This document shows, one piece after another, positions 2,130-44,787 of a stretch of 64,000 bases of DNA. A program made the translations under genes and the position numbers. The DNA is from Deltaproteobacteria bacterium (lineage in GTDB: Bacteria; Desulfobacterota; Syntrophia; Syntrophales; JAAYKM01), in NCBI GenBank assembly GCA_012522415.1, contig JAAYKM010000032.1:2414-66413 (forward strand). The letters run 5' to 3'. The notes below the pieces were generated by a model, which ran no database searches, had not been told where the DNA came from, and was given only the letters and a program-made list of their open reading frames with translations. The stretch's first letter is position 1. Every line of letters begins with the position of its first letter.

Positions 2130-2194
2130 AATGCTTGCAAATTCCTACGGGATGCTTTAGAAGGCGCCATACTGAATTCAACAGGAGTCAAATC

Positions 2195-2392: not shown

Positions 2393-3187
2393 TATACCGC
2401 AGTAGGGGGATTCCCGTATCGCCCGGACAACTCCGTGGAGATAGGGCGTGGGGTCGCCGATCAGGGACATGCCCTGATCCATCAGTTCCTCCATCCCCGC
2501 GCAGGCCGATTCATTCGCATCATCTGCACCGAATATCCTGACATAACGGGGGACCCGTTCGTCCCCTTTCGTAAACCGGATCATTTTCTCCAGCGTGTAA
2601 AAATCCATGGCGTGGTTCATGGCCTCCCTGATCACCGATTCTTCGACCCCGAACAGCCAAGACAGTGTTTTTGTGAATTCGGGCATATAATATCTATCCG
2701 TCTTTGCCATGGCATCCTGAAAAAGGTCGATCAGGCCGTTCCCGGCCGCTGTTTCCCGGAGATAAACGTCTATGCTGAGCTCAACGATCATATGAGAACG
2801 GTAGATGGCCTCCAGCCGATTCACGGCACAGCCGAACCTCGCGCAGTAATCCATAATCGGGTCAACCAGGGATTTACCCATGACATAAGTGTAGCCGGTG
2901 GCATCGGGATTGAACTCCGTGACCACCTCTTCGCAGATTCGCCCATGATGGGCAATATCGTCGGCCAGAAGATGGATCTGCACATAGTGCGCTTTCCTGA
3001 ACTCCGGGGGGACTTTCATGAAACGGGGAATGCGGTGGGTCATGGAAGAATGGACGCTGCGATGTATCGGCAGGATATCGGGACAGACATTATAGACAAA
3101 AATATCCGGTGTCGTCACTTCCAGGCCGGCCAGGTCCAGAAGTTCCCTCAGGATCCAGGTATGCGTCAACATCAACATAGAACCCAT
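2360..3187 (-). CDS. hypothetical protein, possibly a metal-dependent hydrolase (His-rich motifs)
   Basis: 275-aa ORF with protein-like composition ([11 protein letters not shown]..., [11 protein letters not shown]). The 354-aa plus-strand ORF on the opposite strand is R/H/G-rich junk. The 3' end overlaps the rpmB 3' end by 33 nt. Confidence 0.55.
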
Positions 3188-3265
3188 CTCTTCGAGTTTA
3201 CTTCTTGTAAGGGTTCAACAAGATATTATCGAAGGCAAATTTATTTTTCTTGCCGGCCCGGATTT

Positions 3266-3493
3266 TCAGGTACAGGGAACTTCTTCGATGGGAAAAGTAC
3301 TTTGCAAGTCCCTCAGCAAAAAATCAAAATCCTCCTGTTGATCCGCGATAATCGAAATCTGAAGGCGAGCCGGTTTCGGATCGATGGTCGTCACGACGGC
3401 CATTCCTTCGTAGCCCTCGATAATAAACTGAATGGCGGCGATATCCCTGCGATCAACCCGGTAATACCTTACAATCATCGTCGCATTTTTCAT
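3266..3493 (-). CDS. DUF4911 domain-containing small protein
   Basis: YYRVDRRDIAAIQFIIEGYEGMAVVTTIDP matches the DUF4911 pattern from memory. ATG at 3493 has a GAAGG SD; the track start 3517 is an upstream TTG. Confidence 0.6.
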   Translation of the reverse strand: MKNATMIVRYYRVDRRDIAAIQFIIEGYEGMAVVTTIDPKPARLQISIIADQQEDFDFLLRDLQSTFPIEEVPCT

Positions 3494-3557
3494 GCATGAT
3501 GCCTTCAGTTGCTTCAATCAGTAAAGAAGTAGCACCCTGAAATGTTTCCTGCAAGAC

Positions 3558-3587
3558 AAAAAGCGGCCGGGGAGCCCGGCCGCTTTT
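3558..3587 (-). terminator. rho-independent terminator (bidirectional shape)
   Basis: AAAAGCGGCCGGG-GAG-CCCGGCCGCTTTT forms a perfect 9-bp GC stem flanked by A and T runs, about 40 nt after the stop of the 3627..3953 gene. Confidence 0.8.
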
Positions 3588-3626
3588 CGCATCAACTTTG
3601 TTGGTTCCCTTGGTTCTCGGGTCAGC

Positions 3627-3953
3627 TCAACGTCTGTTCCCATGGATATTATCGACATAACGGTTGTGGGCATGTCCCCTATTTTTGAGGGGAAGCTGCT
3701 TTTTTCCGGACCCATGGTGGCCATGCTTGTGACCAGAACTGTACGCATGCCAACGGGAATAAACGGGTTTCGCTTTGACGAAAACCGGAGAAGGCGGATG
3801 GTACACACGCGGTGAATCGAATGTCACAACGGGAACCGGCAAACCCAAAAAGAATCCTATCGATATGTCGGCGGCCAAGGTTGGTTTCGGCAGCATCACG
3901 ACCGCTGCCCCAAGCATCAACGTTACAAAGATTGTCCTGAGAGTTTTCATCAT
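3627..3953 (-). CDS. small secreted protein with a His-rich C-terminus
   Basis: AAGGAGG SD before ATGATG at 3953. Signal peptide MMKTLRTIFVTLMLGAAVVMLPKPTLA. The C-terminal part contains HKHGHHG and GHAHN. Confidence 0.6.
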   Translation of the reverse strand: MMKTLRTIFVTLMLGAAVVMLPKPTLAADISIGFFLGLPVPVVTFDSPRVYHPPSPVFVKAKPVYSRWHAYSSGHKHGHHGSGKKQLPLKNRGHAHNRYVDNIHGNRR

Positions 3954-4158
3954 ATCCTTACCTCCTTGTCTTGTTTGAATGACGTTCTTTTGTTGTGTTT
4001 TATATGTCTCGATCATTTCAATTCCCATGCCAACGATTGGTAATTTGCCTTATGATGAGTATTTTCGGGAAGATAGCTCTTGCCGGTTCAGTGAATCGGC
4101 ATTGTGGCGCAAAATGACTGCATAGAATGTTCGCATTTATGGCCGATCCGCCGTATGA

Positions 4159-4815
4159 ATAGTATCCAGGCCCTTAAGAAACAGGGCCGTTGTCGCCGCC
4201 ACGCTGACCGGACCGTCCATTTTCAAAGGGGTGAGCCGATATGACACCCAGATTTCCACTATTGCCGCCGTCCGCCATTTTCATGAGAAGGTGGGCAGCA
4301 TTATGTTTGTCGGTGGTGAGAATTTCGGCCTTATCACATTCAATGACGAAGGTGACTACGAACGCTATCGGTCAAACACCTCCTGCGCCGCCGGAACGGG
4401 CGGTTTCATTGAGGAACAGGCCGTGAAACGCGGTGTTTCTCTTTCGGGATACGCAGACCGCGCTCTGGTCGCCGTTCTGGAACACCGGTTGAAGAAACCT
4501 GTTTTTGTCTCCAGATTTTGTCACCTGACGGGTGCCCTTGGGAGCGCCCTGATCCTGGCGGAGAACGGGCTCCAACGCTCCGGTTTTCGAGGCCTTGCCC
4601 TCTGTCGGGAAGAGATGCCTGTTGAAAATGAGGTATGTGAGATTTGCCATAATCACTGCAAGATTTGTAAGGTAATTGTGCAGGGGGAAACGGTGGTGTT
4701 CGGGTTTTTGTGTGGGCGGGATTATGAGACCAAGGGTATGTCGGTCCGGCCCGGAGAAAATACGATCTTCTGGATGTGCGCCGGCAGGTGTTTCGGTCCG
4801 TAGAGAGATCCGGCC
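4159..4815 (+). pseudogene. decayed remnant of a BadF/BcrA/HgdC-type CoA-substrate-specific enzyme activase
   Basis: The frame opens after TGA at 4156. It keeps the activase motifs GGENFGLI and NTSCAAGTGGFIEEQA, then jumps directly to ..HLTGALGSALILA and the Cys cluster CEICHNHCKIC..GFLCGRDYE. The N-terminal ATPase part is missing. The frame breaks near 4765, where the sequence continues as YDLLDVRRQVFRSVE in another frame. Confidence 0.6.
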
Positions 4816-5028
4816 CTACATCAAATTTCCTCGTAAGGAATCGAGGGAAGTGTTGGCGTAGGGGCGGATGTCAGGGGAAACAAAAGGAAAGGTATGGAGT
4901 TGGAAACCTGGAGATCGTGAGAGGGTTGTGCTTGTTCCCCGGGAGAAGGGACTTATAAATACCTTGACAAGGAACGAGCCATTCCGTAACGTAACTCCCC
5001 TGAGTAACCGGGAAAAACAGGACAGGGC

Positions 5029-5439
5029 ATGTACGCACGCAAAATCGTTATCCGTTATAGTGCCGATATCGTAGAAGAGCCGATTATTTATGAGCTGGTC
5101 AAAAAACACGATCTCGTCTTCAATATTCTGAAGGCGCGTATTTTTCCGCGTCGCGAAGGTGTCATTGTCCTTGAACTGACGGGAACAAAGGAAAACTTTG
5201 ATTCCGGCATCCGCTTTCTCAAGGAAAAAGGCCTCAAGGTTGAATCCCTGTCCAAAAGCGTCAGCCAAAATCTGGACCGCTGTGTTCACTGCGGAGCTTG
5301 TACCGCATTCTGCCCAACCGGGGCCCTCTATTTCGACCGGGAAACCTGGCAGGTTCATTTCGATCCCGAGCGGTGTAACGGTTGCGAACTCTGTGTAACC
5401 GCATGTTCGGCACGCGCCATGGAGATCAATCTGTTTTAG
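5029..5439 (+). CDS. NIL domain / 2x[4Fe-4S] ferredoxin fusion protein
   Basis: The N-terminal IVEEPIIYELVKKHDLVFNILKARI is NIL-like. The C-terminus has CVHCGACTAFCP and CNGCELCVTAC. Confidence 0.75.
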   Translation: MYARKIVIRYSADIVEEPIIYELVKKHDLVFNILKARIFPRREGVIVLELTGTKENFDSGIRFLKEKGLKVESLSKSVSQNLDRCVHCGACTAFCPTGALYFDRETWQVHFDPERCNGCELCVTACSARAMEINLF

Positions 5440-5443
5440 CCTG

Positions 5444-5794
5444 TTAAGGCTTTGTGCCCTTTCCCGGTTCCGGGTGCCATATTTTATCGACTTCTTCTAT
5501 TTTCTGCTTCCCCTTTTCGATATATTCCTTGCCCATTTTGTAGCCCGTTATGCCTTTTTCTACGGATTCAATGGTTTTCTGCTCCGCTGTTTTCAGGGTT
5601 GATTGGATATTCTGTTTAGCCGTTTCCGGGTTCTTCCAGTAAAAGTATCCGTAGATACCAAGGAAGATGAGGAGAACAAGCAGGGCCATTTTGAAGAGTT
5701 TTTTAAAGAGAAACCAGGTAATAAAAAAGGCGCAGCAAACGGCTATCGCTACCGTGAGCTGGTGACTGGTTATGTAACGGATGAGTTCGTCCAT
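5444..5794 (-). CDS. small membrane protein (2 TM, Lys/Glu-rich tail)
   Basis: CAGGAGG SD before ATG at 5794. Two hydrophobic helices are followed by a charged C-terminus. Confidence 0.5.
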   Translation of the reverse strand: MDELIRYITSHQLTVAIAVCCAFFITWFLFKKLFKMALLVLLIFLGIYGYFYWKNPETAKQNIQSTLKTAEQKTIESVEKGITGYKMGKEYIEKGKQKIEEVDKIWHPEPGKGTKP

Positions 5795-6088
5795 GCTGTT
5801 AAACCTCCTGGAAAGATGATGGTTATAGACGAGCCATACAGGATAAACAATATCATACGGCGCTAATTTACAGAAAAACGCCAAGAAAATCCAGCCCTCC
5901 TTTCATCTTGACAAAGCAGGAGCCTATGAAATAGTTACGACGAAGGGACAGAAGAAAGATAATGAAATATTACGGTATATTAGATGAATACCAGTTCACT
6001 GTGGGCGTGAAAGAACCTGTAAAACCGGTCAATCGAGGGGGTATGAATTTAAAAAACGGTGCATGTTTTGCCACAGGGGCGTCAAGCC

Positions 6089-7426
6089 ATGAAGGCTGAT
6101 TTCGGGTGGGGGTACCGAAAGAAAGTGGCGATTACGACCCTGGGATGTAAGGTGAACCAGTACGAGTCATGCGCTCTGGCCGGTGAGTTTAGGAAGCGGG
6201 GCTACGAAGTCGTGCCTTTCGGTACGCCGGCCGACATTTATGTCATTAACACCTGTACGGTGACGGGCCGAAGCGATTATCAGTCCCGCCAGTTGATCCG
6301 GCGAGCCTTCCGCGCCAACCCTGGGGCAATCATTGTCGCGACGGGTTGTTACGCCCAGGTTGCTCCGGAGGAACTTGCGGTGATGCCGGAAGTATCCCTC
6401 ATCGTGGGAAACGATGAAAAGCTGACCCTGCCGGAACGCATCGAAGCGATGGGTGACGGCAACGGGAAGGTTCAGGTCGGCGACATCTGGCATGTGAAAC
6501 ATATTAATTTCCGGTCGGTTTCGTTTTTCCCAGATCACACCCGGGCCTTTCTCAAAATCCAGGATGGATGCAACGCCTGTTGCAGCTACTGCATTGTGCC
6601 GACGGCCCGAGGCAGGAGTCGGAGTCTTCCTCGGGAAAGCGTGTTGACGGAGCTGCGACGTCTGGGGCAAAGCGGATATCAGGAGGTCGTTCTGACGGGG
6701 ATTCATCTGGGGGCCTACGGTCAGGATTTGCCGGAGCCGATGGGGTTGCTCGATATGTTGAAGGCTGTAGAAAAGGAGCGACCCGTTTCCAGGATCCGTC
6801 TGAGTTCCCTGGAACCGGCCGAGATATCCGACGAATTGGTTGATTGGGTTGGGAGATCGAACGTAATCTGCCCGCATTTCCATGTTCCCCTGCAAAGTGG
6901 GGACGATGATGTGCTGCAATCCATGCGACGCGCCTATGATCGCGCCTTTTTTCACGCCTTGATTGAAAAAATTAGGGCGAAGGTGCCTCGGGCAGCCATT
7001 GGCGTCGATGTCATGACAGGGTTCCCGGGCGAGGATGAGGCGGCCTTCCAGAATACCTTTGATTTGATCGCGTCCCTGCCTTTAACCTATCTCCATGTTT
7101 TCCCCTATTCGCGAAGGCACGGGACGGCGGCGGCGGTCATGGAGGGACAGGTGGAGGAGAAGGCCAAGAGGGGGCGGGCGGAGGCGTTGAGACTTCTGGG
7201 AGCCGGGAAAAAGGAAGAATTCGCCCGCTCGTTTGTCGGCGCCGAACTACCCGTTCTGATCGAAGGTTACGGCGGCAGAGATAAAAAAAACATGAGGGGA
7301 TGGACGGACAATTACCTGGCCGTGATTTTTGAACAGGGGAACCCCGATTGGATCAACCAGATTGTCCCTACCCGGATTTTGGACGAAGAAAGGGGACAAC
7401 TCAGGGGGAGGGTCAATCATGCCTGA
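6089..7426 (+). CDS. mtaB: tRNA (N6-threonylcarbamoyladenosine) methylthiotransferase MtaB, a MiaB-like radical SAM enzyme
   Basis: KVAITTLGCKVNQYES is the UPF0004 domain, CNACCSYCIVP is the radical SAM CxxxCxxC motif, and a TRAM-like C-terminus is present. The track start 6059 is an upstream GTG. Confidence 0.85.
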   Translation: MKADFGWGYRKKVAITTLGCKVNQYESCALAGEFRKRGYEVVPFGTPADIYVINTCTVTGRSDYQSRQLIRRAFRANPGAIIVATGCYAQVAPEELAVMPEVSLIVGNDEKLTLPERIEAMGDGNGKVQVGDIWHVKHINFRSVSFFPDHTRAFLKIQDGCNACCSYCIVPTARGRSRSLPRESVLTELRRLGQSGYQEVVLTGIHLGAYGQDLPEPMGLLDMLKAVEKERPVSRIRLSSLEPAEISDELVDWVGRSNVICPHFHVPLQSGDDDVLQSMRRAYDRAFFHALIEKIRAKVPRAAIGVDVMTGFPGEDEAAFQNTFDLIASLPLTYLHVFPYSRRHGTAAAVMEGQVEEKAKRGRAEALRLLGAGKKEEFARSFVGAELPVLIEGYGGRDKKNMRGWTDNYLAVIFEQGNPDWINQIVPTRILDEERGQLRGRVNHA

Positions 7427-8141
7427 GAAACGGGATCGTATTTTGCGGCGGTTGGAGGCAAAACTTGGTTATCGGTTCAGGAACAGGGCTCTCCTGGACC
7501 AGGCTCTGACCCACCGTTCCTTTGTCCATGAGAACCCGGATTCGACATTGGAAGACAATGAGCGGATGGAGTTTTTAGGCGATGCCATTTTGGGGTTCTG
7601 CGTCAGCGATATGCTGCTTAGAACTCATGAACATTTCACGGAGGGCCAGCTTTCAAAGGCTCGGGCGTCCCTGGTAAAAGAGGGCTCCCTCAGTATCGTT
7701 GCCGGCATGATTGGCCTGGGTGATTATGTTCGTCTGGGCAAGGGCGAAGAAGCTTCGGGGGGGAAAACCAGGGTCTCCACCCTTGCGGATACACTGGAGG
7801 CTGTGGTGGCCGCTATTTATATGGATGGCGGACTCAGGGAATTGACCGGGTGGTTTCATACTTTTTTTGTTCCTCTCCTGGAACGTAACCCGGAGAAGTT
7901 CCGCTACGCAGATTACAAAACGGCGCTCCAGCAGGTCGCACAGAAAAAATTTCGCGATATTCCAGCTTACACCCTCATCGGCTCATCCGGCCCTGATCAT
8001 CGGAAGCTTTTTGAAGTCCGGCTTGTCACCGGAAACATCGTTACGCAGGGCACCGGGAGGACCAAAAAGGAAGCGGAGCAGGGGGCGGCGCGCCAGGCCC
8101 TGGCGCTGATCGAAGACGATGGCGGGGAAAAGCCGAAATGA
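7419..8141 (+). CDS. rnc: ribonuclease III
   Basis: LTHRSF..NERMEFLGDAIL signature plus a C-terminal dsRBD (KTALQQ...GTGRTKKEAEQGAARQAL). The start ATGCCTGA overlaps the mtaB stop. Confidence 0.92.
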   Translation: MPEKRDRILRRLEAKLGYRFRNRALLDQALTHRSFVHENPDSTLEDNERMEFLGDAILGFCVSDMLLRTHEHFTEGQLSKARASLVKEGSLSIVAGMIGLGDYVRLGKGEEASGGKTRVSTLADTLEAVVAAIYMDGGLRELTGWFHTFFVPLLERNPEKFRYADYKTALQQVAQKKFRDIPAYTLIGSSGPDHRKLFEVRLVTGNIVTQGTGRTKKEAEQGAARQALALIEDDGGEKPK

Positions 8142-8197
8142 CGGCGATGTGAAGGAGACAAGCCAAAATAAACAGACGAAACGAAAAGGAGCAATGA

Positions 8198-9883
8198 ATG
8201 GGTGAGCCAGGCAACAAGATCATTTTTTCCATGATTCAGGTGAGCAAATTTTACGACAAAAGACCGGTGATCCAGGATATTTCCCTGTCGTATTTCTACG
8301 GCGCAAAAATCGGCGTTTTGGGCCTGAACGGCTCGGGAAAAAGTTCGCTCCTGCGGATCATGGCCGGGGTGGACAAGGAGTTCAACGGCCAGCTCATCTT
8401 CAGCCCGGGTTACTCTGTCGGTTTGCTCGAACAGGAACCACATCTGGACGACACCAAGACGGTGCGGGGCATCGTTGAGGAGGCCGTTGCGGAAACAGTC
8501 GAACTGGTGAACGAATATAACCGGATCAACGAGCGGTTCGCCGAACCCATGTCTGATGAAGAAATGGACCGACTTATCGCCCGCCAGGGGGAAGTGCAGG
8601 AAAAACTGGATGCCCTGGATGCCTGGGACTTGGACGAGCGTCTGGAGATGGCCATGGATGCCCTGCGCTGCCCGGAGGGAGACACGCCGGTTGAGATCCT
8701 CTCCGGCGGCGAACGGCGTCGCGTCGCCCTGTGCCGGCTCCTTCTGCAGAAACCGGATATCCTGCTGCTGGACGAGCCGACAAACCACCTGGACGCGGAA
8801 ACCGTGGCCTGGCTGGAGCATCATCTGCAGCGATACGAGGGAACGGTCATTGCCGTGACCCACGACCGCTATTTCCTGGACAACGTCGCCGGCTGGATTC
8901 TGGAACTGGACCGCGGCCGGGGCATCCCGTGGAAGGGGAACTACTCTTCATGGCTGCAGCAGAAGCAGGAACGTCTGCGACAGGAGGAAAAAGCCGAAAC
9001 CCAGCGCCAGAAAACCCTGCAGCGGGAACTCGAATGGATCAGCATGTCCCCCAAGGCGCGGCAGACGAAATCCAAGGCCCGGATCAGCGCCTACGAGGAA
9101 CTCCTTGCTCAGCAGGGCGAGGCCCGCTCCGAGGAACTGGAAATCTATATTCCCCCGGGGCCTCGCTTGGGTAGGGTCGTTGTGGAAGCCGAGGATGTAT
9201 CAAAGGGTTACGGGGACCGTCTCCTCTTCGAGAGGATGAATTTTCTGCTTCCGCCGGGCGGAATTGTCGGGATCATCGGCCCGAACGGCGCCGGAAAGAC
9301 GACTCTGTTCCGGATGATCACGGGACAGGAAACACCGGATGCCGGTCAGATCCGCGTCGGCGAGACGGTCAAACTGGCCTACGTGGACCAGAGCCGGGCC
9401 AGTCTCGACCCGGAAAAGTCGATCTGGGAGGTTATTTCCGGCGGCCGGGATACGCTGCAGTTGGGGGATGTATCGGTTAAGTCGAGGGCTTACGTGGCCA
9501 GGTTTAACTTTTCCGGGGCGGACCAGCAGAAAAAGGTGGCCAACCTCTCCGGTGGGGAACGGAACCGGGTGCACCTGGCCTGTATGCTGAAGGAAGGGGC
9601 CAACGTCCTCCTCCTGGATGAACCCACAAACGACCTCGATGTGAATACCCTGCGTGCCCTGGAGGAGGCCCTGGAGAATTTCGCCGGTTGCGCCGTCGTG
9701 ATCAGCCATGACCGGTGGTTCCTGGATCGTGTGGCCACCCACATCCTGGCCTTTGAGGGTGACAGCAGCGTCGTCTGGTTCGAGGGCGGTTATTCCGATT
9801 ACGAGGCGGACCGGAAAATGAGGCTGGGCGCGGCAAGCGACCGTCCCCGCCGGATCAAGTACCGCCAGTTGACCCGGGCGTGA
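8198..9883 (+). CDS. ettA: ABC-F translational throttle protein EttA
   Basis: 561 aa with two ABC cassettes ([16 protein letters not shown], two LSGGE signatures) and an EttA-like N-terminus and length. Confidence 0.88.
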
Positions 9884-10020
9884 TACGGGGGTGTCAGGTT
9901 GTGATGCGGAGCAGGAACCCCTTAAGGGAATGCCCTTCAGGGCGGGCCAGCTATTCCGGTATGATTGTAAGAAACGATTGAACGAAGAGGGGACAAACAC
10001 GAAATCAGCGGGGGACATCC

Positions 10021-11187
10021 ATGTCGAATCTCTTTTCTCCTTGGGCAACGGACCCGGTCCGGGGGGTTTTCCTGCGTCGGCTCAACCGCTTCGTCGTTGA
10101 ATGCGACTTGAACGGTCGGCCCGTCTCGGCCCATCTGGCCAATCCGGGTCGTCTGTGGGAGTTGCTTCTGCCGGGGGCCACAGTTTTCCTTATTCGACGG
10201 GGAAGCGTGACGGCGGGCGGCCTCATGTACAGCGCCGTAGCCGTGGAACGGGACGGCGTTCCGATACTGCTGCACACCCAGATGGCCAATCGGGTTGCTC
10301 GACATCTTCTTGAGTCAAATCGGGTTCCCGGGCTCGAGGATACGAAGATTGTCAAGGCGGAGGCGACGGTCGGACATAGCCGGTTCGATTTCCACCTTCT
10401 GCAACGGGGATGTGACATTCTTTGCGAAGTCAAGTCCTGCACCCTCTTCGGTAAATCGTTCGCCATGTTTCCCGACGCCGTGACGGAACGGGGGAGGCGT
10501 CATCTGATGGAACTGGCGGAACTGGCGGACCGGGGCTTCCACTGTGTCGTCATTTACCTTATCCACTGGTCCGGCGCCCGTTACTTTCTCCCGGATTTTC
10601 ACACGGACCCTGATTTTTCTCGGATTTTCCGTGAGGTGCGCCACAGGGTCCGTTTCTGTCCCCTGTCCGTCGGTTGGTCTTCGTCGCTTCACCTGCTTGA
10701 TCCGGTAAGGGAGGTGGATATCCCTTGGTCCGTTCTGGAACGGGAAGACTGTAACCGGGGAAGCTACCTGTTGATCCTCAATCTGGCTTCAGATCGTTCG
10801 ATTGATGTCGGGAGGCTGGGGTCAATATTTTTCCCGGCAGGTTATTATATTTACGTCGGATCGGCTCAAAAAAACTTGTCTCAGCGTGTGAACCGCCATC
10901 TGCGCCGTAAAAAGAAGCCCTTCTGGCACATCGATTACTTGAGAAATCATGCTGACAGCTGTGTTGCCGTGCCCATTCGATCCAGTGAAAACCTGGAACA
11001 TGAATTGGCAGGGGCTTTGGGTAAAATCTGTGGGCGGCAGATCCCGGATTTCGGTTCGTCGGATTGCCGCTGCCCAACCCATCTTTTCAGCTTGCCGTGT
11101 CACCCGTTGCGGTATCGGCCGTTCATCGCCCTTTTACAAACTTACCGGATGGATCGCCTGGAGGATCTGGTAGAGGTGAGTCGATGA
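10021..11187 (+). CDS. sfsA: SfsA nuclease-like protein fused to a DUF123 / GIY-YIG (Uri)-like domain
   Basis: The N-terminal ~235 aa are SfsA-like (GVFLRRLNRFVVECDLNG...AHLANPGRL). The C-terminal ~150 aa match the DUF123 pattern (GSYLLIL..GYYIYVGSA..RVNRHLRRKKKPFWHIDYL). It is one uninterrupted ORF. Confidence 0.75.
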   Translation: MSNLFSPWATDPVRGVFLRRLNRFVVECDLNGRPVSAHLANPGRLWELLLPGATVFLIRRGSVTAGGLMYSAVAVERDGVPILLHTQMANRVARHLLESNRVPGLEDTKIVKAEATVGHSRFDFHLLQRGCDILCEVKSCTLFGKSFAMFPDAVTERGRRHLMELAELADRGFHCVVIYLIHWSGARYFLPDFHTDPDFSRIFREVRHRVRFCPLSVGWSSSLHLLDPVREVDIPWSVLEREDCNRGSYLLILNLASDRSIDVGRLGSIFFPAGYYIYVGSAQKNLSQRVNRHLRRKKKPFWHIDYLRNHADSCVAVPIRSSENLEHELAGALGKICGRQIPDFGSSDCRCPTHLFSLPCHPLRYRPFIALLQTYRMDRLEDLVEVSR

Positions 11188-11234
11188 TCAATCTGGAATG
11201 TAAGAAAACTTTTTCGTCTGGGCCATCCGGAAAA

Positions 11235-11264
11235 AAAGGGGCCATGTGAAACACGACCCCCTTT
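11235..11264. terminator. hairpin between convergent sfsA and yip1-like genes
   Basis: AAAGGGG..(15 nt)..CCCCTTT is flanked by an A-run and a T-rich run. Confidence 0.45.
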
Positions 11265-11310
11265 GTTTGTATGTGATTTGCACGACAGTAATTGGCAAGG
11301 GATGAAACCG

Positions 11311-11895
11311 CTACATCATCATTGGTCCCCGGAAGACGATGCCCCGGACGATTCCATTCATGATTACCTGAATGATGATGGCAACCAGAAGGGTGGTAAC
11401 GAAGAAGCCGAGGTGTTTTTCGGCAGGTGCATCCGTCAACTGCTTGATGCCCAGGTAAAGGAGATAAAGACCGTAGAGCCCGGCGATCAGGGTGATCACC
11501 CCCAGAGCCGGAACAATCAGGAAAACGCCGCTGATCCAGAAAGGGGTCATGGAGAAAACCGCGATTTTGAAGGCAGCCCCCATATCCCGTGTAGCGCCAA
11601 AATTTTGCGAGAGACGATCAATGATTATGGCCAGCAGGTATACGCCGACCAGGCTCAGAACATAGCTCAGCAGGCAATAAACCAGACCATACTGGAGGGG
11701 CAAACGGAACGTGCCCAGGCCAAAGGAAAACCCGATGACGCTGAATCCAATAAAACCGCCCAAAGCCGGGATGGCCGCCAGGATCATGGCATATTGCTTG
11801 AAAAGATCCGCCGTCGTGCAGGTTTCGCCTTTGATCACCTCCCACTCCGAAGCCGGGGACAAAATGATGTTTTTGACTCTCTCGACCAGATTCAT
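11311..11895 (-). CDS. Yip1-family integral membrane protein
   Basis: AAGGAGG SD before ATG at 11895. 5 TM with a Yip1/DUF1282-like N-terminus (MNLVERVKNIILSPASEWEVIK). Confidence 0.65.
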   Translation of the reverse strand: MNLVERVKNIILSPASEWEVIKGETCTTADLFKQYAMILAAIPALGGFIGFSVIGFSFGLGTFRLPLQYGLVYCLLSYVLSLVGVYLLAIIIDRLSQNFGATRDMGAAFKIAVFSMTPFWISGVFLIVPALGVITLIAGLYGLYLLYLGIKQLTDAPAEKHLGFFVTTLLVAIIIQVIMNGIVRGIVFRGPMMM

Positions 11896-12037
11896 ACGCA
11901 CCTCCTTCATTCATTTTTTAAGGACCAGTTCACAACCCAAAAAATAAATTCCCCTTCCAACCTTTATTGATGTGGTCGGCTCTTTTTCCGGCCGGATTGC
12001 ATGGACGGCCATGGTCGGGTTTTCAGACGACGCTGCA

Positions 12038-12349
12038 CTATTTTATAGAGACCGGGTCACCTTTCGGTGCCATTTGGTTTTTTCGGAAGGTGTCAATGAT
12101 TCTTTTGAGGGAAGTCTGTTCGTCATCGTAGGTAATGATAATCAGATTGTCGACTCCGTCCTCGAAATGACGGATCCCCTGCATATTTTCCAGAACAACC
12201 CGTGCCCTGGCGTGACCTCCTCACGAATCGTAGCCGGGAATAGCCAGCTGGACAACGCGTTCTTCCGCATACAGGGGTATGGCGAAGAGGTTTGTCAGCA
12301 TGAACATGAAGGCGACGAGTAAGGCATGGGGAAAGAACCGGACATTCAT
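12038..12349 (-). CDS. candidate selenoprotein: secreted MerP/CopZ-like heavy-metal-associated (HMA) domain protein with in-frame UGA (Sec) at codon 43
   Basis: ATG at 12349 with AAGGA upstream. The signal-like N-terminus is MNVRFFPHALLVAFMFMLTNLFAIPLYA, followed by EERVVQLAIPGYDS, then TGA at 12223-12221. The same frame continues GGHARARVVLENMQGIRHFEDGVDNLIIITYDDEQTSLKRIIDTFRKNQMAPKGDPVSIK to TAG at 12040-12038. The joined sequence follows the HMA pattern, with the TGA at the first-Cys position of the GMTCxxC motif. It is absent from the ORF track because both halves are shorter than 60 aa. Confidence 0.6.
12190..12210 (-). promoter_or_regulatory. putative bacterial SECIS hairpin
   Basis: 10 nt after the UGA lies CCAGGGCA-[CGGGU]-UGUUCUGG, an 8-bp stem (2 G-U pairs) with a G-rich 5-nt apical loop. 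The loop starts 18 nt after the UGA, which fits the bSECIS geometry I recall. Confidence 0.5.
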
Positions 12350-12618
12350 ATTTTGTATTTCCTTCTTTGAATTCGGTACGGTCAGCAATGTAGCGGTCTT
12401 TTAGGTAAAAATCCAGAGATATTTGATTAAACTAACGGTTTTCCCGTGACCTGTCGTGAAATGAATGATCCCGTCTTGACAGGGGATCGGCATTCAATAT
12501 AGAACGAGGTCATCGATGTTCAAAAAAACGAGGACAGCAGTGTTTGTTCGACATATGGATGGCATTTCACGGATGATCCCCCGGATGCCGCATTCCTGAA
12601 AGGCAAACTGGAAACGGC

Positions 12619-13236
12619 ATGGCACTTATCACGACCGCTCCGTTTATTCTCGCTTCGGCGTCCCCAAGACGAATTGAGTTGCTGAGCACCCTGGGATTGG
12701 CTTTTACGGCGATGCCCAGTGGCGCCGATGAAAGCTGCCGGGTCGGCGAAAGCCCGACTGACCATGTGCGAAGGGTTGCCTGTATGAAGGCCAGGGCTTT
12801 GGCCATGCGCCATCCGGATGCGTGGATTCTGGGAGCTGATACCATTGTGGCCGTCGACGGCGAGGTATTGGGCAAGCCAAAAAATGCAGCAGACGCGCGA
12901 CGGATGCTGCGGCTTTTGAGTGGCCGGACGCACCGCGTTTACACCGGCTTTGCCGTCATCAGAAAATCGGTTTCCCTGATGCGCCGAAAAACAGTTCGTT
13001 CAACGGTTCTTTTCAGCTCGGTTGGAGAAGACGAGGTTGAGTGGTATATCCGAACGGGTGAACCTTACGGCAAGGCGGGGGGATATGCCATACAGGGCAA
13101 GGGGGGGGTGTTCGTTCGACGAATTTCCGGCTCCTATTCCAACGTGATCGGTCTGCCGATCAATGAGGTTTTTGAAATCCTCAAAAAAATCGGAGCCATT
13201 CATTTCGATGAGGGTTGTGGTGAACAGGTCGGTTGA
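12619..13236 (+). CDS. maf: Maf-like nucleoside triphosphate pyrophosphatase
   Basis: ILASASPRRIELL, GADTIV and YGKAGGYAIQG are motifs typical of Maf/YhdE. Confidence 0.88.
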   Translation: MALITTAPFILASASPRRIELLSTLGLAFTAMPSGADESCRVGESPTDHVRRVACMKARALAMRHPDAWILGADTIVAVDGEVLGKPKNAADARRMLRLLSGRTHRVYTGFAVIRKSVSLMRRKTVRSTVLFSSVGEDEVEWYIRTGEPYGKAGGYAIQGKGGVFVRRISGSYSNVIGLPINEVFEILKKIGAIHFDEGCGEQVG

Positions 13237-13924
13237 AAAAAATGTTGTCTGCATTCGCGAGGAAATTGCGGAAGCGGCATTCCGTAGTGGACGTGACCCT
13301 TCCGAGGTGCGTCTGATGGCGGTTACGAAAACGGTTGATGACGAACGGATCCTGGAGGCCGTTGCGGCCGGGGTTCATCTCATCGGTGAAAATTACGTAC
13401 AGGAGGCCCGGAGAAAGGTTCCGATTTTACCTGAGGATCTCGAATGGCACATGATCGGACACCTCCAGACAAATAAATCCAGGCATGCCGTTCGCCTCTT
13501 CCATATGATCCAGTCCGTTGACCGTATGGAACTGGCTAGAGAATTGAATAAACGCTGTGTGGCTGCGAACGTGGTTATGCCGGTTCTGGTGGAAGTGAAC
13601 ACGGGAGGTGAGGAAAGCAAGAGCGGGATCAGACCGGAGGAAGCGGTTCGTTTTGTCGAAACGGTTGCAACATGCGGAAATCTCTCCATTCGGGGGCTTA
13701 TGACCATGCCTCCCTGGTTTGCGGAAGCCGAGGAGGCCCGTCCATATTTCAGGGCTCTGCGGGAAATGCGTGACAGGATTACGGAGCGGCATGTTCCCGG
13801 CGTTCATATGACGGAACTCTCCATGGGGATGTCCAATGATTTTGTCGTTGCCGTGGAGGAAGGGGCAACGATTGTTCGGCTTGGGCGGGCCATCTTTGGT
13901 GAGCGCCCGCCAAAACACGTTTAA
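13208..13924 (+). CDS. yggS: YggS-family pyridoxal-phosphate homeostasis protein
   Basis: LMAVTKT (PLP lysine), IGENYVQE, HMIGHLQTNK and LSMGMSNDF. The start is uncertain; ATG 13208 overlaps the maf end. Confidence 0.85.
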   Translation: MRVVVNRSVEKNVVCIREEIAEAAFRSGRDPSEVRLMAVTKTVDDERILEAVAAGVHLIGENYVQEARRKVPILPEDLEWHMIGHLQTNKSRHAVRLFHMIQSVDRMELARELNKRCVAANVVMPVLVEVNTGGEESKSGIRPEEAVRFVETVATCGNLSIRGLMTMPPWFAEAEEARPYFRALREMRDRITERHVPGVHMTELSMGMSNDFVVAVEEGATIVRLGRAIFGERPPKHV

Positions 13925-13934
13925 TGGAGATTGC

Positions 13935-14417
13935 ATGAGGCTTCTGAAGTTCACCCTGAATGATGATGCAATCGAGATCGGGGTTCAAGACGGTGAGACA
14001 CTCCTCGAAGTGCTGCGGCACCGTTTGGGCATGACGGGGACTAAGCAGGGCTGTGACCAGGGCGAGTGCGGCAGTTGCACGGTTCTTCTGGATGGGCAAC
14101 CCGTTTTATCCTGTCTCACTTTGGCAGTTCGCGTGGATAAACGCCAGGTGACGACCATTGAAGGCCTTGCGGTGGGCGGTAATCTGCACCCTGTTCAGGG
14201 GGCCTTTCAAGAGGCTGGGGCGATTCAGTGCGGTTTCTGCACTCCGGGGATGGTTTTGACGGCCAAAGCGCTGCTGGATCGGCGGCAGGATCCTCAACGG
14301 GAGGAGATCAAGGCGGCTCTTGCGGGGAATCTCTGTCGTTGCACCGGGTACAAAAAAATCGTGGAAGCGGTTGAGCTGGCGGCAACGCGGCTGGGGAAAC
14401 ACGATGGCCGGGGATAA
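13935..14417 (+). CDS. [2Fe-2S]-binding small subunit of a xanthine dehydrogenase-family molybdoenzyme (CoxS/HcrC-like)
   Basis: GCDQGECGSCTV and QCGFCTPGM...CRCTGY are the two [2Fe-2S] motifs. Confidence 0.88.
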   Translation: MRLLKFTLNDDAIEIGVQDGETLLEVLRHRLGMTGTKQGCDQGECGSCTVLLDGQPVLSCLTLAVRVDKRQVTTIEGLAVGGNLHPVQGAFQEAGAIQCGFCTPGMVLTAKALLDRRQDPQREEIKAALAGNLCRCTGYKKIVEAVELAATRLGKHDGRG

Positions 14418-16698
14418 CGTCTACCACTGCATCGGCCGGGGCAGGCCGCGGACCGACAGCCTGGCCAAGGTGACCGGAGCGGCGCAGTTTACAGCCGATA
14501 TTCCGGTGCACCGTTGTCTGGTGGGAAAAATTCTCCGATCCCCTCATGCCCATGCCCGGATCCTCTCCATCGATACGCAAAGGGCGAAGGCCCTTCCGGG
14601 AGTCAAGGCGGTGGTCACCGGCGTGGATGCTCCGGTCAAATACGGTATTTTGCCGGTTTCCCAGGATGAATATCCCCTGGCGGTGGAAAAGGTGAGGTTT
14701 GTCGGTGATGAGGTTGCCGCGGTGGCCGCCGTCGATGAGGCAACGGCCCTGCGGGCCCTTGAACTCATTGAGGTGACCTATGAAGTGCTCCCCGTTATTC
14801 TCGATCCCCATGAGGCTCTTGTTCGGGAGGATGTAAAAATTCACGAACGGGCCGTGGAAGCCAATATTGAACGGCGGGTGCATCTGGTTTTCGGTGATCT
14901 GGAACAGGCCTTTGCCGAAGCGGATTATATCCGGGAGGATCGCTTCTTCAAAGAGGCCGCGAGTCATGCCTTTCTTGAACCTCACAGCGCCCTGGCGCAG
15001 TATCAGGACGGCAAACTCACCCTCTGGAGTTCAACCCAGGTGCCCCATTATGTCCATCGTTCCCTATCCAGCGTTCTCCGTATCCCCATGGAGAAAATCC
15101 GGGTGATCAAGCCTGCCCTGGGCGGCGGATTCGGGGGAAAAGGCGAGCCCCTGCCGCTGGAATTCGCAGCATCGCTTCTGGCCATGAAAACGGGTCGACC
15201 CGTCCGGGTCATCCACAGCAGAGAAGAGGTGTTTCTCACCCATCGGGGACGTCATCCCATGGAAATGACTCTAAAAACCGGGGTGAAACAGGATGGGACG
15301 ATCACGGCGGTTCAATTCAGCAGTCTGTTGGACGGCGGGGCCTACGGTTCCTACGGCGTTGTGACCATGATCTATTCCGGGCAATTGCTGACAGCGCCTT
15401 ATCGGGTTCCCGCTTACGCCTTTGACAGCGTGCGTGTATTCACGAACAAACCGCCTTGCGGTGCCCAACGCGGCCATGGTGGCGTACAGCCGCGTTTCGC
15501 CTTTGAAGTGCATTTGGACCGGATTGCCGCCGATCTGGGAATCGATCCCCTGGAAATACGCCGACGGAATGCCATAGAGGCGGATACGGTCACGGTGAAT
15601 GAACTGCGCATTACGTCCTGCGCATTCAAGACGTGCCTGGACCGGGTTGCGGAGACAGTGGATTGGAAGAACAAGCATGGCAAGCTGCCCTACGGAAAAG
15701 GTGTAGGCCTGGCCGGGGGATTTTATGTGACAGGGGCGGCCTATCCCATCTACGCCAATCCCATGCCTCATTCCCAGGTACAAATAAGGGTGGATCGTAA
15801 CGGGGGGGTGACCGTTTTTTCCGGTGCTTCCGACATCGGCCAGGGTTCAGATACGCTGCTGGTCATGATTACCGCGGAAACGCTCGGCATTCCGGAGACG
15901 TCGGTTCGCGTCGTTTCCGCCGACACGGAAATAACGCCGGTTGACCTCGGTTCCTATTCCAGCCGGGTGACCTTTATGGCTGGGAACGCCTGTCATCAAG
16001 CCGCTCTGGAGATCCGTGACCGTCTGCTTGCCGTCTGCGCGAAAGAACTGGAACGAAACCAGAAAGATCTGAGGTTCAGGGAAGGGCACCTATTCGCAAA
16101 GGAAGCTCGGGAGCCCCTGATGACTTTTGCCGAAGCGTCCGTTCTGGGGGAGGCCTCCGGAGTCGCCTTGTGCGCTTTGGGGAGTTATCGTCCACCGGAA
16201 TTGGCCGGTTCCTACAAGCTTGGAGGCGTGGGGCCGTCTCCGGCCTATTCCTTCGGCGCCCAGGCGGCGGAGGTGGAGGTAGACACGGAAACCGGAGAAA
16301 TCCGGGTCGTGAAAATCCACTGCGCCCATGACTTGGGGTTTGCCCTCAACCCCCTGGCTGCATCCGGTCAGGCTGAAGGGGCCGTCGTCATGGGATTCGG
16401 TGAGGCGGTGCTGGAGCATCACGGTTTTTCCCCGGGAGGCCGTCACAATGGCCCCACCTTTTTGGATTACAAAATTCCAACCTGTCTCGATGTGCCCGAT
16501 GTGGACGTTACACTCGTTGAGAGTATCGATCCGGCAGGGCCCTACGGGGCGAAGGAAATCGGCGAAGGAAGCCTTCATCCAAGCCTTCCCGCCATTGTGA
16601 ACGCTCTGTACGATGCGGTCGGTTGCTGGTTTCACGATCTGCCCCTGACGGCGGAGCGGGTTCTGGCGGCTCTTGATCACAAGGAGACTCCTTCATGA
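14404..16698 (+). CDS. molybdopterin-binding large subunit of a xanthine dehydrogenase-family enzyme (aldehyde oxidase / 4-hydroxybenzoyl-CoA reductase alpha-like)
   Basis: About 764 aa with GRPRTDSLAKVTGAAQFTADI, GGGFGGK, GAQRGHG and GAKEIGEG. The start overlaps the small-subunit stop. Confidence 0.88.
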   Translation: MAGDNVYHCIGRGRPRTDSLAKVTGAAQFTADIPVHRCLVGKILRSPHAHARILSIDTQRAKALPGVKAVVTGVDAPVKYGILPVSQDEYPLAVEKVRFVGDEVAAVAAVDEATALRALELIEVTYEVLPVILDPHEALVREDVKIHERAVEANIERRVHLVFGDLEQAFAEADYIREDRFFKEAASHAFLEPHSALAQYQDGKLTLWSSTQVPHYVHRSLSSVLRIPMEKIRVIKPALGGGFGGKGEPLPLEFAASLLAMKTGRPVRVIHSREEVFLTHRGRHPMEMTLKTGVKQDGTITAVQFSSLLDGGAYGSYGVVTMIYSGQLLTAPYRVPAYAFDSVRVFTNKPPCGAQRGHGGVQPRFAFEVHLDRIAADLGIDPLEIRRRNAIEADTVTVNELRITSCAFKTCLDRVAETVDWKNKHGKLPYGKGVGLAGGFYVTGAAYPIYANPMPHSQVQIRVDRNGGVTVFSGASDIGQGSDTLLVMITAETLGIPETSVRVVSADTEITPVDLGSYSSRVTFMAGNACHQAALEIRDRLLAVCAKELERNQKDLRFREGHLFAKEAREPLMTFAEASVLGEASGVALCALGSYRPPELAGSYKLGGVGPSPAYSFGAQAAEVEVDTETGEIRVVKIHCAHDLGFALNPLAASGQAEGAVVMGFGEAVLEHHGFSPGGRHNGPTFLDYKIPTCLDVPDVDVTLVESIDPAGPYGAKEIGEGSLHPSLPAIVNALYDAVGCWFHDLPLTAERVLAALDHKETPS

Positions 16699-17684
16699 CC
16701 CTCCCCGAACTGGATGTTCTGAAGCCAGGGACGCTTGCCGACGCGCTGCGGTTACTGAGAGAAAATCCCGATGCACGGCCGATAGCAGGAGGGACCGATC
16801 TGCTGGTTCTGATGAAACAGCGATTGGTTAATCCGAAAACTCTCATTGATGTCAGCCGACTGTCCGAATTGCAGGATATCGCGGAGCAGGACGATAGTCT
16901 TCGCATCGGCGCCGCCGTTCTCTTGACCGAAATTACGGGTAACGACCGGATCAACAGGGATTACCCCGGCCTGGCGGAAGCGGCCCGGTTCGTGGCGAGT
17001 CCAAACCTCCGGAATATGGGCACGATCGGCGGTAACATCTGTTTGACGCCCCGATGTTCATACTTCAACCAATCCCAATTTTGGCGCGACTCTCTTGGTC
17101 GCTGTCTGAAAACCGGCGGCGACGTATGTTTTGCGGTTCCCGGGGCCAGGCGCTGCTATGCCTCTTTCTGTGCAGATTGTCCCCCCGTACTGATCGCCCT
17201 GGGTGCGACTGTCACAATTGTCCGGTGGAAAAAGGGAGGTGTGACGGAACGTCGGGGTTCACTTGAGAGTATCTAGCGGGACGACGGTGTAAAGCCCTTA
17301 TCTCAGTGGCGGGACGAATTGGTGACGGCGGTGCATCTGCCCTTGAAGGGAAAAGGATATCGTTCAGCCTATTTGAAATACCGACGCCGGGCTTCCATCG
17401 ACTTTCCCCTGGCCGGTGTTGCCGTGGCCTTTGGCCTGGAAGAGGGGAAGTTCAAGAATATCCGCATCGTGCTGAACGCACTGGCCTCTTCACCGATTCT
17501 GGCAGGGGAGAGCATGGCCCGTTTGGAGGGAGAGCCATACAATGAACGTGTCGTGGAAGATGCGATGACCTGTCTGGCCCGGGGAGCGCATCCGGTTCGC
17601 AATCAGGCGGGGTCCCCGGAGCATCGTCGTCGAATGGCTGGAATTCTCTTCCGGAGGGCGGTGGGAAGACTCATCAATGTGTAG
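16695..17684 (+). pseudogene. FAD-binding medium subunit (CoxM/HcrB-like) with a Cys-rich insertion, interrupted by an in-frame TAG at 17274-17276
   Basis: The track ORFs 16695..17276 and 17319..17684 are in the same frame. The N-part has PIAGGTDL and MGTIGGNIC. The C-part has AVHLP..YRSAYLKYRRRASIDFPLAGVAV (CO-dehydrogenase flavoprotein C-domain). The stop falls where homologues have an aromatic residue (..LESI*RDDG..). Confidence 0.75.
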
Positions 17685-17849
17685 GAATAAAAAGGGGTGC
17701 ATGGGACTCACTGGCTTCGACAGGGTCGGGAAATGCATCCGATGATTTAGGTCGGACCCTGTTTCCGGTAAGCAGACTGGAAAAGCTTCCAGAGAGAGCA
17801 GGGTCTGTTTCGCCTGTGGTGGAAACGTCCGGGCAAGGCGATGGTCAGG

Positions 17850-43137: not shown

Positions 43138-44787
<1,650 letters not shown>

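What the first reader, a model, noticed from the sequence alone, without database searches (positions are those of the whole stretch)
16695..17684. FAD subunit of the Mo-enzyme is split by an in-frame TAG and carries a Cys-rich insertion typical of 4-hydroxybenzoyl-CoA reductase beta subunits
ORFs 16695..17276 and 17319..17684 are in the same frame and separated by TAG at 17274-17276 (..GGVTERRGSLESI*RDDGVKPLSQWRDELVTAVHLP..). The stop sits where CoxM/XdhB-type proteins normally have an aromatic residue, consistent with a single-base change from TAY. Both halves remain well conserved.

Between GGNIC and DCPPVLIALGA there is an insertion of about 43 aa, LTPRCSYFNQSQFWRDSLGRCLKTGGDVCFAVPGARRCYASFCA, with 5-6 cysteines. 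In the family this kind of loop is known from HcrB, where it binds an extra [4Fe-4S] cluster that lets the enzyme run in the reductive direction.

The locus therefore appears to encode a reductive Hcr-like enzyme whose electron-entry subunit is either broken or read through.
Basis: partly seen in the sequence, partly recalled or inferred. Interest (0 to 1): 0.55.

Follow-up and report, generated by a model that had tools for sequence, protein, structure and literature searches.

The report
Assembly-error stop codon in Hcr-like gene
The stop codon that splits this flavin-subunit gene is in the deposited sequence, but other assemblies of the same strain read tyrosine there, so it is almost certainly an assembly error in an ordinary 4-hydroxybenzoyl-CoA-reductase-like operon.

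Summary
An in-frame TAG at 17274-17276 splits a 329-codon CoxM/HcrB-type gene (16695..17684). A roughly 40-aa four-Cys loop aligns without gaps to the [4Fe-4S] loop of Thauera HcrB.

The stop is not biological:
- Two assemblies of the same strain are identical to the window over 3.0 and 8.8 kb except at three bases, and they read TAC (Tyr) there.
- Three contigs of a 99.1%-identical sister strain encode an intact 329-aa protein.
- The TAG lies in a 39-bp patch of six substitutions found only in this contig. Five of them change the protein and four are transversions.
- The patch straddles the point where both same-strain contigs end.
- A second patch of the same kind puts a TAG into groEL (43573-43575). 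A same-strain assembly reads CAG there.
- Substitutions private to the window are 14 nonsynonymous to 2 synonymous. Real strain differences are 84 to 168 (p=2e-5).
- TAG is an ordinary terminator in this window, including hcrB's own stop.

The gene belongs to a conserved hcrCAB-like operon of a Syntrophales lineage. Thauera 4-HBCR is the best structural and family match for all three subunits, but all three score below the NCBIfam equivalog cut-offs. The Cys loop also occurs in the oxidative enzyme PaoABC, so it does not prove the reductive direction. Interest is low.

The parts
13935..14417 (+). hcrC-like gamma subunit with two [2Fe-2S] domains, 160 aa
   Evidence: Pfam Fer2 plus Fer2_2. The best NCBIfam hit is TIGR03193, 192.3 bits against a cut-off of 257.8.
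14404..16698 (+). hcrA-like alpha subunit that binds the molybdopterin cofactor, 764 aa. It overlaps hcrC by 14 bases and hcrB by 4 bases (ATGA).
   Evidence: Pfam Ald_Xan_dh_C, MoCoBD_1 and MoCoBD_2. TIGR03194 scores 937.9 bits against a cut-off of 994.55. The best solved structure is 1RM6_A, E=2.8e-200.
16695..17684 (+). hcrB-like beta (FAD) subunit, 329 codons, interrupted in this record by TAG at codon 194
   Evidence: Translation. Pfam FAD_binding_5 (residues 6-217) plus CO_deh_flav_C. 1RM6_B matches at E=2.8e-50 over residues 8-326. An intact 329-aa conspecific protein, P0121, exists.
17043..17174 (+). Cys-rich insertion (residues 117-160), the predicted [4Fe-4S] loop. The ligand Cys codons are at 17055, 17103, 17127 and 17154.
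   Evidence: The loop aligns to the HcrB loop without a gap. C121, C137, C145 and C154 are invariant in 24 relatives. The loop is absent from CoxM-type matches, which split at residues 120/159.
17274..17276 (+). In-frame TAG. It reads TAC (Tyr) in every other assembly of this species.
17269..17307 (+). Patch of six substitutions found only in this contig (17269, 17271, 17276, 17303, 17305, 17307). They give N192S, L193I, Y194*, S203S, L204Q and G205W. The patch straddles the point (17295/17296) where both same-strain contigs end.
   Evidence: The next same-strain contig begins at 17429.
43504..43575 (+). Second patch of the same kind, in groEL (43153..44787). Seven private substitutions give R118W, G119G, I120T, V124A, T126P, Q134R and Q141* (TAG at 43573-43575).
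   Evidence: Same-strain contig L011 and five sister-strain contigs read CAG and encode a 544-aa GroEL.

Best explanation
The window is a contig of a metagenome-assembled genome ('Deltaproteobacteria bacterium', proteins GX147_02655 and GX147_02660). It carries short patches of wrong bases where coverage of this strain was too thin for other assemblers to continue. One patch (17269-17307) turned the Tyr194 codon TAC of an intact hcrB-like gene into TAG. A second patch (43504-43573) turned Gln141 (CAG) of groEL into TAG. In the organism the gene is whole.

The gene is the beta subunit of a conserved hcrCAB-like molybdenum-flavin-iron-sulfur enzyme. By homology with Thauera 4-HBCR (inference, not shown here), electrons would enter at the extra [4Fe-4S] cluster of the beta subunit. 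They would then pass via FAD and the two [2Fe-2S] clusters of the gamma subunit to the Mo cofactor of the alpha subunit. There a phenolic acyl-CoA, plausibly 4-hydroxybenzoyl-CoA, would be reductively dehydroxylated.

Shown here: the artefact pattern and the homology. Inferred: the exact origin of the errors (single low-quality reads bridging a coverage gap), the substrate, and the direction of catalysis.
For: (1) Same-strain contigs L013 (NCBI LSQX01300329.1) and L014 (JGI 3300038805) are identical to the window over 8456-17296 and 14306-17295 except at 17269, 17271 and 17276. They read GAATCTCTAC, that is Tyr.
(2) Sister-strain contigs L001-L003 are 99.1-99.2% identical over 14.7-21 kb. They encode the intact 329-aa P0121, and outside the patch hcrB differs from them by only two synonymous SNPs.
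(3) Both same-strain contigs end at 17295/17296, inside the patch. The next contig of that assembly (LSQX01350240.1) spans window 17429-43313, from just after the hcrB patch to just before the groEL patch. That assembly also has an N-gap at 12685-12733. Other contigs of this strain are only 0.9-3.7 kb long. Both observations point to low coverage.
(4) groEL carries the same kind of lesion. Same-strain L011 agrees with the window at all 15 strain-marker sites in 40333-44029 but has the wild-type base at all seven patch sites.
(5) Private substitutions are 14 nonsynonymous (2 of them nonsense) to 2 synonymous, against 84 to 168 for strain-level SNPs (Fisher p=2e-5). Transitions to transversions are 9:8 against 232:66 (p=0.03).
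(6) The truncated 193-aa and 120-aa products occur in one contig only among about 15 billion proteins. A metagenome scan with a pattern that allows both alleles found only the intact allele.
(7) TAG terminates 18 of 58 ORFs of at least 120 aa in the window, including hcrB itself.
(8) The operon and its neighbours are syntenic, and hcrB is intact, in relatives at 61-74% identity.
Against: No reads were available, so the error is inferred from other assemblies. Some of those may have been built from overlapping read sets, and none of them is known to be the MAG's own source sample. The three downstream patch sites (17303, 17305, 17307) could only be compared with the sister strain, because no same-strain contig covers 17297-17428. 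The window also has about six isolated private single-base differences (21674, 27481, 37086, 39408, 39876, 41610). It could therefore be a slightly different sub-strain in which a real variant is conceivable. I cannot name the assembler step that produced clustered substitutions rather than a contig break.
Confidence: 0.86

Rival explanations
1. The nonsense allele is real. A sub-population or sub-strain sampled by this MAG has recently inactivated hcrB, making it a young pseudogene, through a clustered multi-nucleotide mutation.
For: The TAG is in the deposited record. The downstream 135 codons have no further stop or frameshift, which fits a very recent event as well as an error. The contig has a few other private single-base differences from the same-strain assembly, so it may not be the identical clone.
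Against: Two same-strain assemblies read TAC. The lesion is a 39-bp patch of six changes, five of them amino-acid-changing, and not a point mutation. An equivalent patch with a stop sits in groEL, where loss of function is not expected to be tolerated. The patch coincides with a contig end in other assemblies. The operon is conserved and intact across the lineage.
Confidence: 0.1
2. The TAG is decoded by pyrrolysine insertion, a suppressor tRNA or programmed read-through, so a full-length beta subunit is made from this sequence.
For: Both halves are in frame and well conserved. A second in-frame TAG occurs in groEL, which must be expressed.
Against: No orthologue has TAG at this column: 23 of 23 relatives, the conspecific P0121 and both same-strain contigs carry an amino-acid codon there, mostly Tyr. 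TAG is a common terminator in the window, 18 of 58 ORFs, including hcrB's own stop and its neighbours. The only tRNA in the window is tRNA-Met, and no Rfam element lies nearby. The stops are embedded in patches of other non-conservative changes, such as GroEL R118W.
Confidence: 0.02
3. The gene is functionally split. A 193-aa N-terminal piece and a 120-aa C-terminal piece, restarting at GTG 17322 or TTG 17319, assemble into a working FAD subunit.
For: The public record annotates two separate proteins, NLN59610 and NLN59611. A possible start codon lies 43-48 bases after the stop.
Against: The break lies inside the Pfam FAD_binding_5 domain, which spans residues 6-217. Residues 194-209 would be lost, including invariant G198 and the near-invariant Y194, D197 and E208. 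No relative is split: all 120 best hits except this record's own fragment are 323-362 aa. The same strain has the gene whole.
Confidence: 0.02

Closest known systems
4-hydroxybenzoyl-CoA reductase HcrCAB of Thauera aromatica (PDB 1RM6/1SB3; Unciuleac et al. 2004, Structure 12:2249, cited)
   Same: It has the same three subunits. The gene order is gamma-alpha-beta, with overlapping reading frames in the window. It is the best solved-structure match for the alpha subunit (E=2.8e-200) and the beta subunit (E=2.8e-50). The beta-subunit loop has the same length, and its four Cys align one-to-one. The best NCBIfam hit for every subunit is the Hcr equivalog.
   Different: All three subunits score below the equivalog cut-offs: alpha 937.9 of 994.55, beta 279.6 of 404.55 for the intact conspecific protein, and gamma 192.3 of 257.8. 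The operon sits among housekeeping genes (Maf, YggS, NifU, KpsF), not next to benzoyl-CoA pathway genes. The host is an anaerobic-digester Syntrophales MAG. Substrate and activity are untested.
PaoABC (YagTSR) periplasmic aldehyde oxidoreductase of E. coli (PDB 5G5G/5G5H) and the Methylobacillus aldehyde oxidase (5Y6Q)
   Same: It belongs to the same enzyme family. Its FAD subunit also carries a four-Cys [4Fe-4S] motif (bioRxiv 10.64898/2026.07.15.738685). 5Y6Q_B aligns through the loop region.
   Different: The matches are much weaker: PaoB E=2.8e-20 and 5Y6Q_B E=1.8e-32, against 2.8e-50 for HcrB, and they need gaps in the loop. PaoA and PaoC NCBIfam scores are far below their cut-offs, 139.7 of 322 and 304.3 of 1180. 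PaoABC works oxidatively.
CoxM / XdhB-type FAD subunits (CO dehydrogenase 1N5W_C, glyceraldehyde dehydrogenase 4ZOH_B)
   Same: They share the FAD_binding_5 and CO_deh_flav_C domains.
   Different: They lack the roughly 40-aa Cys loop. Their matches break into two stretches at query residues about 120 and 159.
Low-coverage consensus errors in metagenome-assembled genomes, a known class of artefact (general knowledge)
   Same: The differences are private and clustered. They are unfiltered by selection and lie at positions where other assemblies of the same strain break.
   Different: The errors here are substitutions only, with no indels. The exact mechanism could not be established without reads.

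Membership tests
4-hydroxybenzoyl-CoA reductase (HcrCAB; NCBIfam TIGR03193/4/5) | Three subunits: a [2Fe-2S] gamma, a Mo-cofactor alpha and an FAD beta, encoded together | tested here: met
   ORFs 13935-14417, 14404-16698 and 16695-17684 carry the expected Pfam domains.
4-hydroxybenzoyl-CoA reductase (HcrCAB; NCBIfam TIGR03193/4/5) | The beta subunit carries an insertion of about 40 aa with four Cys that bind an extra [4Fe-4S] cluster | tested here: met
   The loop aligns without a gap to the 1RM6_B loop, and all four Cys are conserved and invariant in 24 relatives. Actual cluster binding was not tested. The motif is not exclusive to Hcr, because PaoB has it too.
4-hydroxybenzoyl-CoA reductase (HcrCAB; NCBIfam TIGR03193/4/5) | Each subunit reaches the curated equivalog score | tested here: not met
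   Alpha scores 937.9 against 994.55 and gamma 192.3 against 257.8. Beta scores 268.5 for the window and 279.6 for intact P0121, against 404.55.
4-hydroxybenzoyl-CoA reductase (HcrCAB; NCBIfam TIGR03193/4/5) | Genomic association with anaerobic aromatic (benzoyl-CoA) catabolism | tested here: not met
   The neighbours are SfsA, Yip1, Maf, YggS, a 4HBT-fold thioesterase, NT5C, NifU and KpsF. No benzoyl-CoA reductase or aryl-CoA ligase was found among about 40 annotated genes of the window. Only the 64-kb window was examined, not the genome.
4-hydroxybenzoyl-CoA reductase (HcrCAB; NCBIfam TIGR03193/4/5) | Catalyses ferredoxin-dependent dehydroxylation of 4-hydroxybenzoyl-CoA | not testable with these tools
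   This needs an enzyme assay.
Genuine pseudogene (nonsense allele) | The stop is reproducible in independent sequence of the same strain | tested here: not met
   L013 and L014 (same strain) read TAC. The truncated product is found in one contig only.
TAG recoding (pyrrolysine or suppression) | The in-frame TAG is conserved in orthologues, TAG is avoided as a terminator, and pylT/pylS are present | tested here: not met
   Orthologues have Tyr. TAG ends 18 of 58 ORFs. The window has only tRNA-Met. The rest of the genome was not examined.
PaoABC-type aldehyde oxidoreductase | Reaches the PaoA and PaoC equivalog scores | tested here: not met
   PaoA scores 139.7 against 322 and PaoC 304.3 against 1180.

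The most novel reading that the evidence does not exclude
The two TAG-bearing patches are real haplotypes in the sampled digester population. They would be products of a localized clustered-mutation process that hit hcrB and groEL. Cells carrying them would survive through TAG suppression or read-through, or through second gene copies.
Probability: 0.04. Interest if true: 0.45.

Novelty: not a real feature. Interest (0 to 1): 0.07.

Why it matters
The result matters mainly as a caution. The public record splits this gene into two 'hypothetical proteins' (NLN59610 and NLN59611) and splits groEL as well, because of local consensus errors. Any pseudogene, recoding or 'loss of aromatic catabolism' inference drawn from this MAG would be wrong.

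The positive result is modest. A Syntrophales lineage from anaerobic digesters carries a conserved, syntenic hcrCAB-like operon with the HcrB-type [4Fe-4S] loop, embedded in housekeeping genes. Its scores fall below the Hcr equivalog thresholds, so its substrate is an open but unremarkable question.

Tried and rejected
1. Template-switch or quasi-palindrome origin of the patch. No inverted repeat of at least 7 nt was found in 17200-17360 in either allele. The DNA folding energy is no better for the window allele, -4.5 against -6.9 kcal/mol. Rejected.

2. Gene conversion from a diverged homologue. None of the 23 relatives has the window's residues (ESI / SQW) at these columns. Rejected.

3. Finding the TAG allele elsewhere. 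A degenerate pattern allowing both alleles returned only the intact JGI contig from metagenome contigs. It returned nothing from genome contigs.

4. Naming the organism from GTDB representative genomes. The search for related loci returned only distant relatives at 25-35% identity, in Binataceae, Chloroflexota and Firmicutes. The only taxon labels are those of the sources: 'Syntrophales bacterium' and 'Deltaproteobacteria bacterium'.

5. Same-strain sequence to the right of groEL. Exact look-ups of the window's LspA and IleRS found nothing on record. This is probably a start-codon choice or further private differences. As a result, the census of private differences is incomplete for 1-8455 and 44030-64000.

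6. Minus-strand reading 5496..4372, which has an in-frame TAG at 4816. Its translation looks non-coding and neither candidate ORF there has a Pfam hit. Not pursued.
Full report
**1. The observation**

- Bases 16695-17684 translate in one frame to a 329-codon product with a single internal stop, TAG at 17274-17276...RRGSLESI*RDDGVKPLSQW....
- The gene's own terminator, at 17682-17684, is also TAG.
- The gene starts with ATGA, overlapping the stop of a 764-aa Mo-cofactor subunit (14404-16698).
- That subunit in turn overlaps a 160-aa double-[2Fe-2S] subunit (13935-14417).

**2. Family assignment and the Cys loop**

The read-through product has FAD_binding_5 (residues 6-217) and CO_deh_flav_C domains.

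Its best solved relative is the beta subunit of Thauera 4-hydroxybenzoyl-CoA reductase, 1RM6_B, at E=2.8e-50 over residues 8-326. The stretch TIGGNICLTPRCSYFNQSQFWRDSLGRCLKTGGDVCFAVPGARRCY aligns with it without a gap.

CoxM-type subunits (1N5W_C, 4ZOH_B) match only as two pieces, ending near residue 120 and resuming at 159. The insertion of about 40 aa is therefore real.

C121, C137, C145 and C154 align with the four Cys of the HcrB loop (chain residues 122, 138, 146 and 155, counted). They are invariant in 24 aligned relatives. From memory, these four Cys are the [4Fe-4S] ligands reported by Unciuleac et al. 2004; that paper's title is cited.

The alpha subunit's best structure is 1RM6_A, E=2.8e-200.

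NCBIfam puts the Hcr equivalogs first for all three subunits, but each is below the trusted cut-off:

| Subunit | Score (bits) | Cut-off (bits) |
|---|---|---|
| alpha | 937.9 | 994.55 |
| gamma | 192.3 | 257.8 |
| beta (window) | 268.5 | 404.55 |
| beta (intact conspecific P0121) | 279.6 | 404.55 |

The loop alone does not prove a reductive enzyme. The same four-Cys [4Fe-4S] motif in the FAD subunit is described as characteristic of the oxidative aldehyde oxidoreductase PaoABC (bioRxiv 10.64898/2026.07.15.738685).

**3. The residue at the stop**

In the 24-sequence alignment the stop column is Tyr in at least 90% of sequences. It is Phe in Thauera.

**4. Provenance**

The 193-aa N-terminal product is NLN59610.1 ('MAG: hypothetical protein GX147_02655 [Deltaproteobacteria bacterium]'), and the 120-aa C-terminal piece is NLN59611.1. 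Both are seen on one 67.6-kb contig only.

The same 90%-identity cluster holds an intact 329-aa protein, P0121. NCBI names it 'xanthine dehydrogenase family protein subunit M [Syntrophales bacterium]'. JGI names it '4-hydroxybenzoyl-CoA reductase subunit beta'.

**5. Sister strain**

Three contigs that encode P0121 (L001 from JGI, L002 from ENA, L003 from Logan) are 99.08-99.23% identical to the window over 14.7-21 kb.

Within hcrB they differ from the window by:
- two synonymous SNPs (16889 and 17120);
- six substitutions within 39 bp (17269 G/A, 17271 A/C, 17276 G/C, 17303 T/C, 17305 A/T, 17307 T/G).

These six give N192S, L193I, Y194*, S203S, L204Q and G205W. Four of the six are transversions, whereas 80% of the other differences are transitions.

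**6. Same strain**

An exact look-up of the window's own HcrA found two contigs, L013 (NCBI LSQX01300329.1) and L014 (JGI 3300038805).
- L013 is 100% identical to the window over 8456-12684. It is identical over 12734-17296 except at 17269, 17271 and 17276.
- L014 is identical over 14306-17295 except at the same three positions.
- Both read ...GAGAATCTCTACCGG..., that is Tyr.
- Both end at 17295/17296, in the middle of the patch.
- The next contig of that assembly, LSQX01350240.1, begins at window 17429 and ends at 43313.
- The LSQX scaffold also has an N-gap at 12685-12733.
- Other contigs of this strain, from the PRJNA283612 runs, are only 0.9-3.7 kb long.

Together these features indicate thin coverage of this strain.

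**7. A second case in groEL**

While annotating the window I found that Pfam matched only the last two-thirds of GroEL, at 43591-44787.

Translation of 43153-44787 gives a 544-residue GroEL with TAG at codon 141 (43573-43575). It also has oddities such as Trp in place of the conserved Arg in '[14 protein letters not shown]'.

Eight contigs carrying the identical GroES were fetched. Of the seven that extend into groEL past the patch start, all have the alternative base at every patch site they cover. The seven patch sites are 43504, 43509, 43511, 43523, 43528, 43553 and 43573.

Among them is L011 (ENA assembly of SRR3166067). It is the same strain, because it agrees with the window at all 15 strain-marker SNPs between 40333 and 44029. 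L011 reads CAG (Gln) at codon 141.

Six of the seven changes alter the protein.

**8. Statistics**

Across both compared regions, window-private substitutions differ from ordinary strain-level SNPs as follows:

| Measure | Window-private | Strain-level | Fisher p |
|---|---|---|---|
| Nonsynonymous : synonymous | 14 : 2 (two nonsense) | 84 : 168 | 2e-5 |
| Transitions : transversions | 9 : 8 | 232 : 66 | 0.03 |

The only other dense SNP cluster, 11638-11749 in a Yip1-family gene, is shared with the same-strain contig. It is mostly transitions, so it is real divergence.

**9. Recoding is excluded**
- TAG terminates 18 of 58 ORFs of at least 120 aa in the window.
- The only tRNA in the window is tRNA-Met.
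- No orthologue has TAG at this column.
- A functional split is implausible. The break lies inside the FAD-binding domain, and a restart at 17319/17322 would drop residues 194-209, including invariant G198.

**10. Context**

The arrangement is SfsA, Yip1, Maf, YggS, hcrCAB, then 4HBT-fold thioesterase, NT5C, NifU and KpsF. It is conserved in relatives whose HcrB is 61-74% identical, and hcrB is intact in all of them.

Those relatives have an extra nitroreductase-family gene directly after hcrB. It is missing here.

No benzoyl-CoA-pathway genes were seen in the window.

**11. Verdict**

The in-frame TAG is a consensus error of this MAG contig at a low-coverage junction (confidence about 0.86). 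A real, very recent nonsense allele in a sub-population cannot be fully excluded without reads (about 0.10).

The underlying gene is an ordinary, intact Hcr-like beta subunit with the expected [4Fe-4S] loop. Its precise substrate is not established.

Noticed in passing
window 43153-44787 (TAG at 43573-43575; patch 43504-43573): groEL is split by an in-frame TAG inside a patch of seven substitutions private to this contig. Six of them change the protein (R118W, I120T, V124A, T126P, Q134R, Q141*). The same-strain and sister-strain contigs that cover the patch encode an intact GroEL with CAG there.
   Followed up: yes
window 21674, 27481, 37086, 39408, 39876, 41610: These are isolated single-base differences private to the window: the same-strain LSQX contig and the sister strain agree with each other against it. 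Five of the six are T in the window. The three whose effect was computed give RecN L349F, MltA H301L and NUDIX R34W. They could be errors or micro-diversity.
   Followed up: partly
window 11638-11749 (minus-strand Yip1-family gene 11311..11910): This is a dense tract of about 19 mostly transition SNPs against the sister strain. It is identical in the same-strain contig. It therefore looks like a real hypervariable or recombined segment and not an artefact.
   Followed up: partly
window 17685-17849; L027 3535-4104, L029 11003-11572: Related species have a 189-aa nitroreductase-family gene 16 bases after hcrB, probably in the same operon. In this species the position is a 165-bp intergenic gap.
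   Followed up: no
L013 4230-4330 (window 12685-12733); contig ends at window 17296, 17429 and 43313: The NCBI metagenome assembly LSQX of the same strain has a 101-base N-gap (L013 4230-4330) standing in for 49 bases of the window. Its contig breaks bracket both error patches. The 67.6-kb MAG contig looks like those pieces bridged through poorly covered stretches.
   Followed up: partly
window 33440-35215: Three consecutive queuosine-pathway genes lie in one reading frame, each ending in TAG: a PTPS/QueD-like gene, a radical-SAM QueE-like gene and QueC. The next ORF begins within 0-9 bases of each stop. They are called as separate genes in all conspecific contigs, so this is probably coincidence.
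   Followed up: no
window 48949-54027 (minus strand): An ADP-forming acyl-CoA synthetase (CoA_binding, Succ_CoA_lig and ATP-grasp_5 domains) lies next to a TRAP transporter (DctP, DctQ, DctM). This could be an organic-acid uptake and activation module. No link to the hcr operon was shown.
   Followed up: no
window 4231-5496: Two overlapping-region ORFs have no Pfam match: 4231-4803 on the plus strand and 4816-5358 on the minus strand. The minus-strand frame continues past a TAG at 4816. The coding status is unclear.
   Followed up: no
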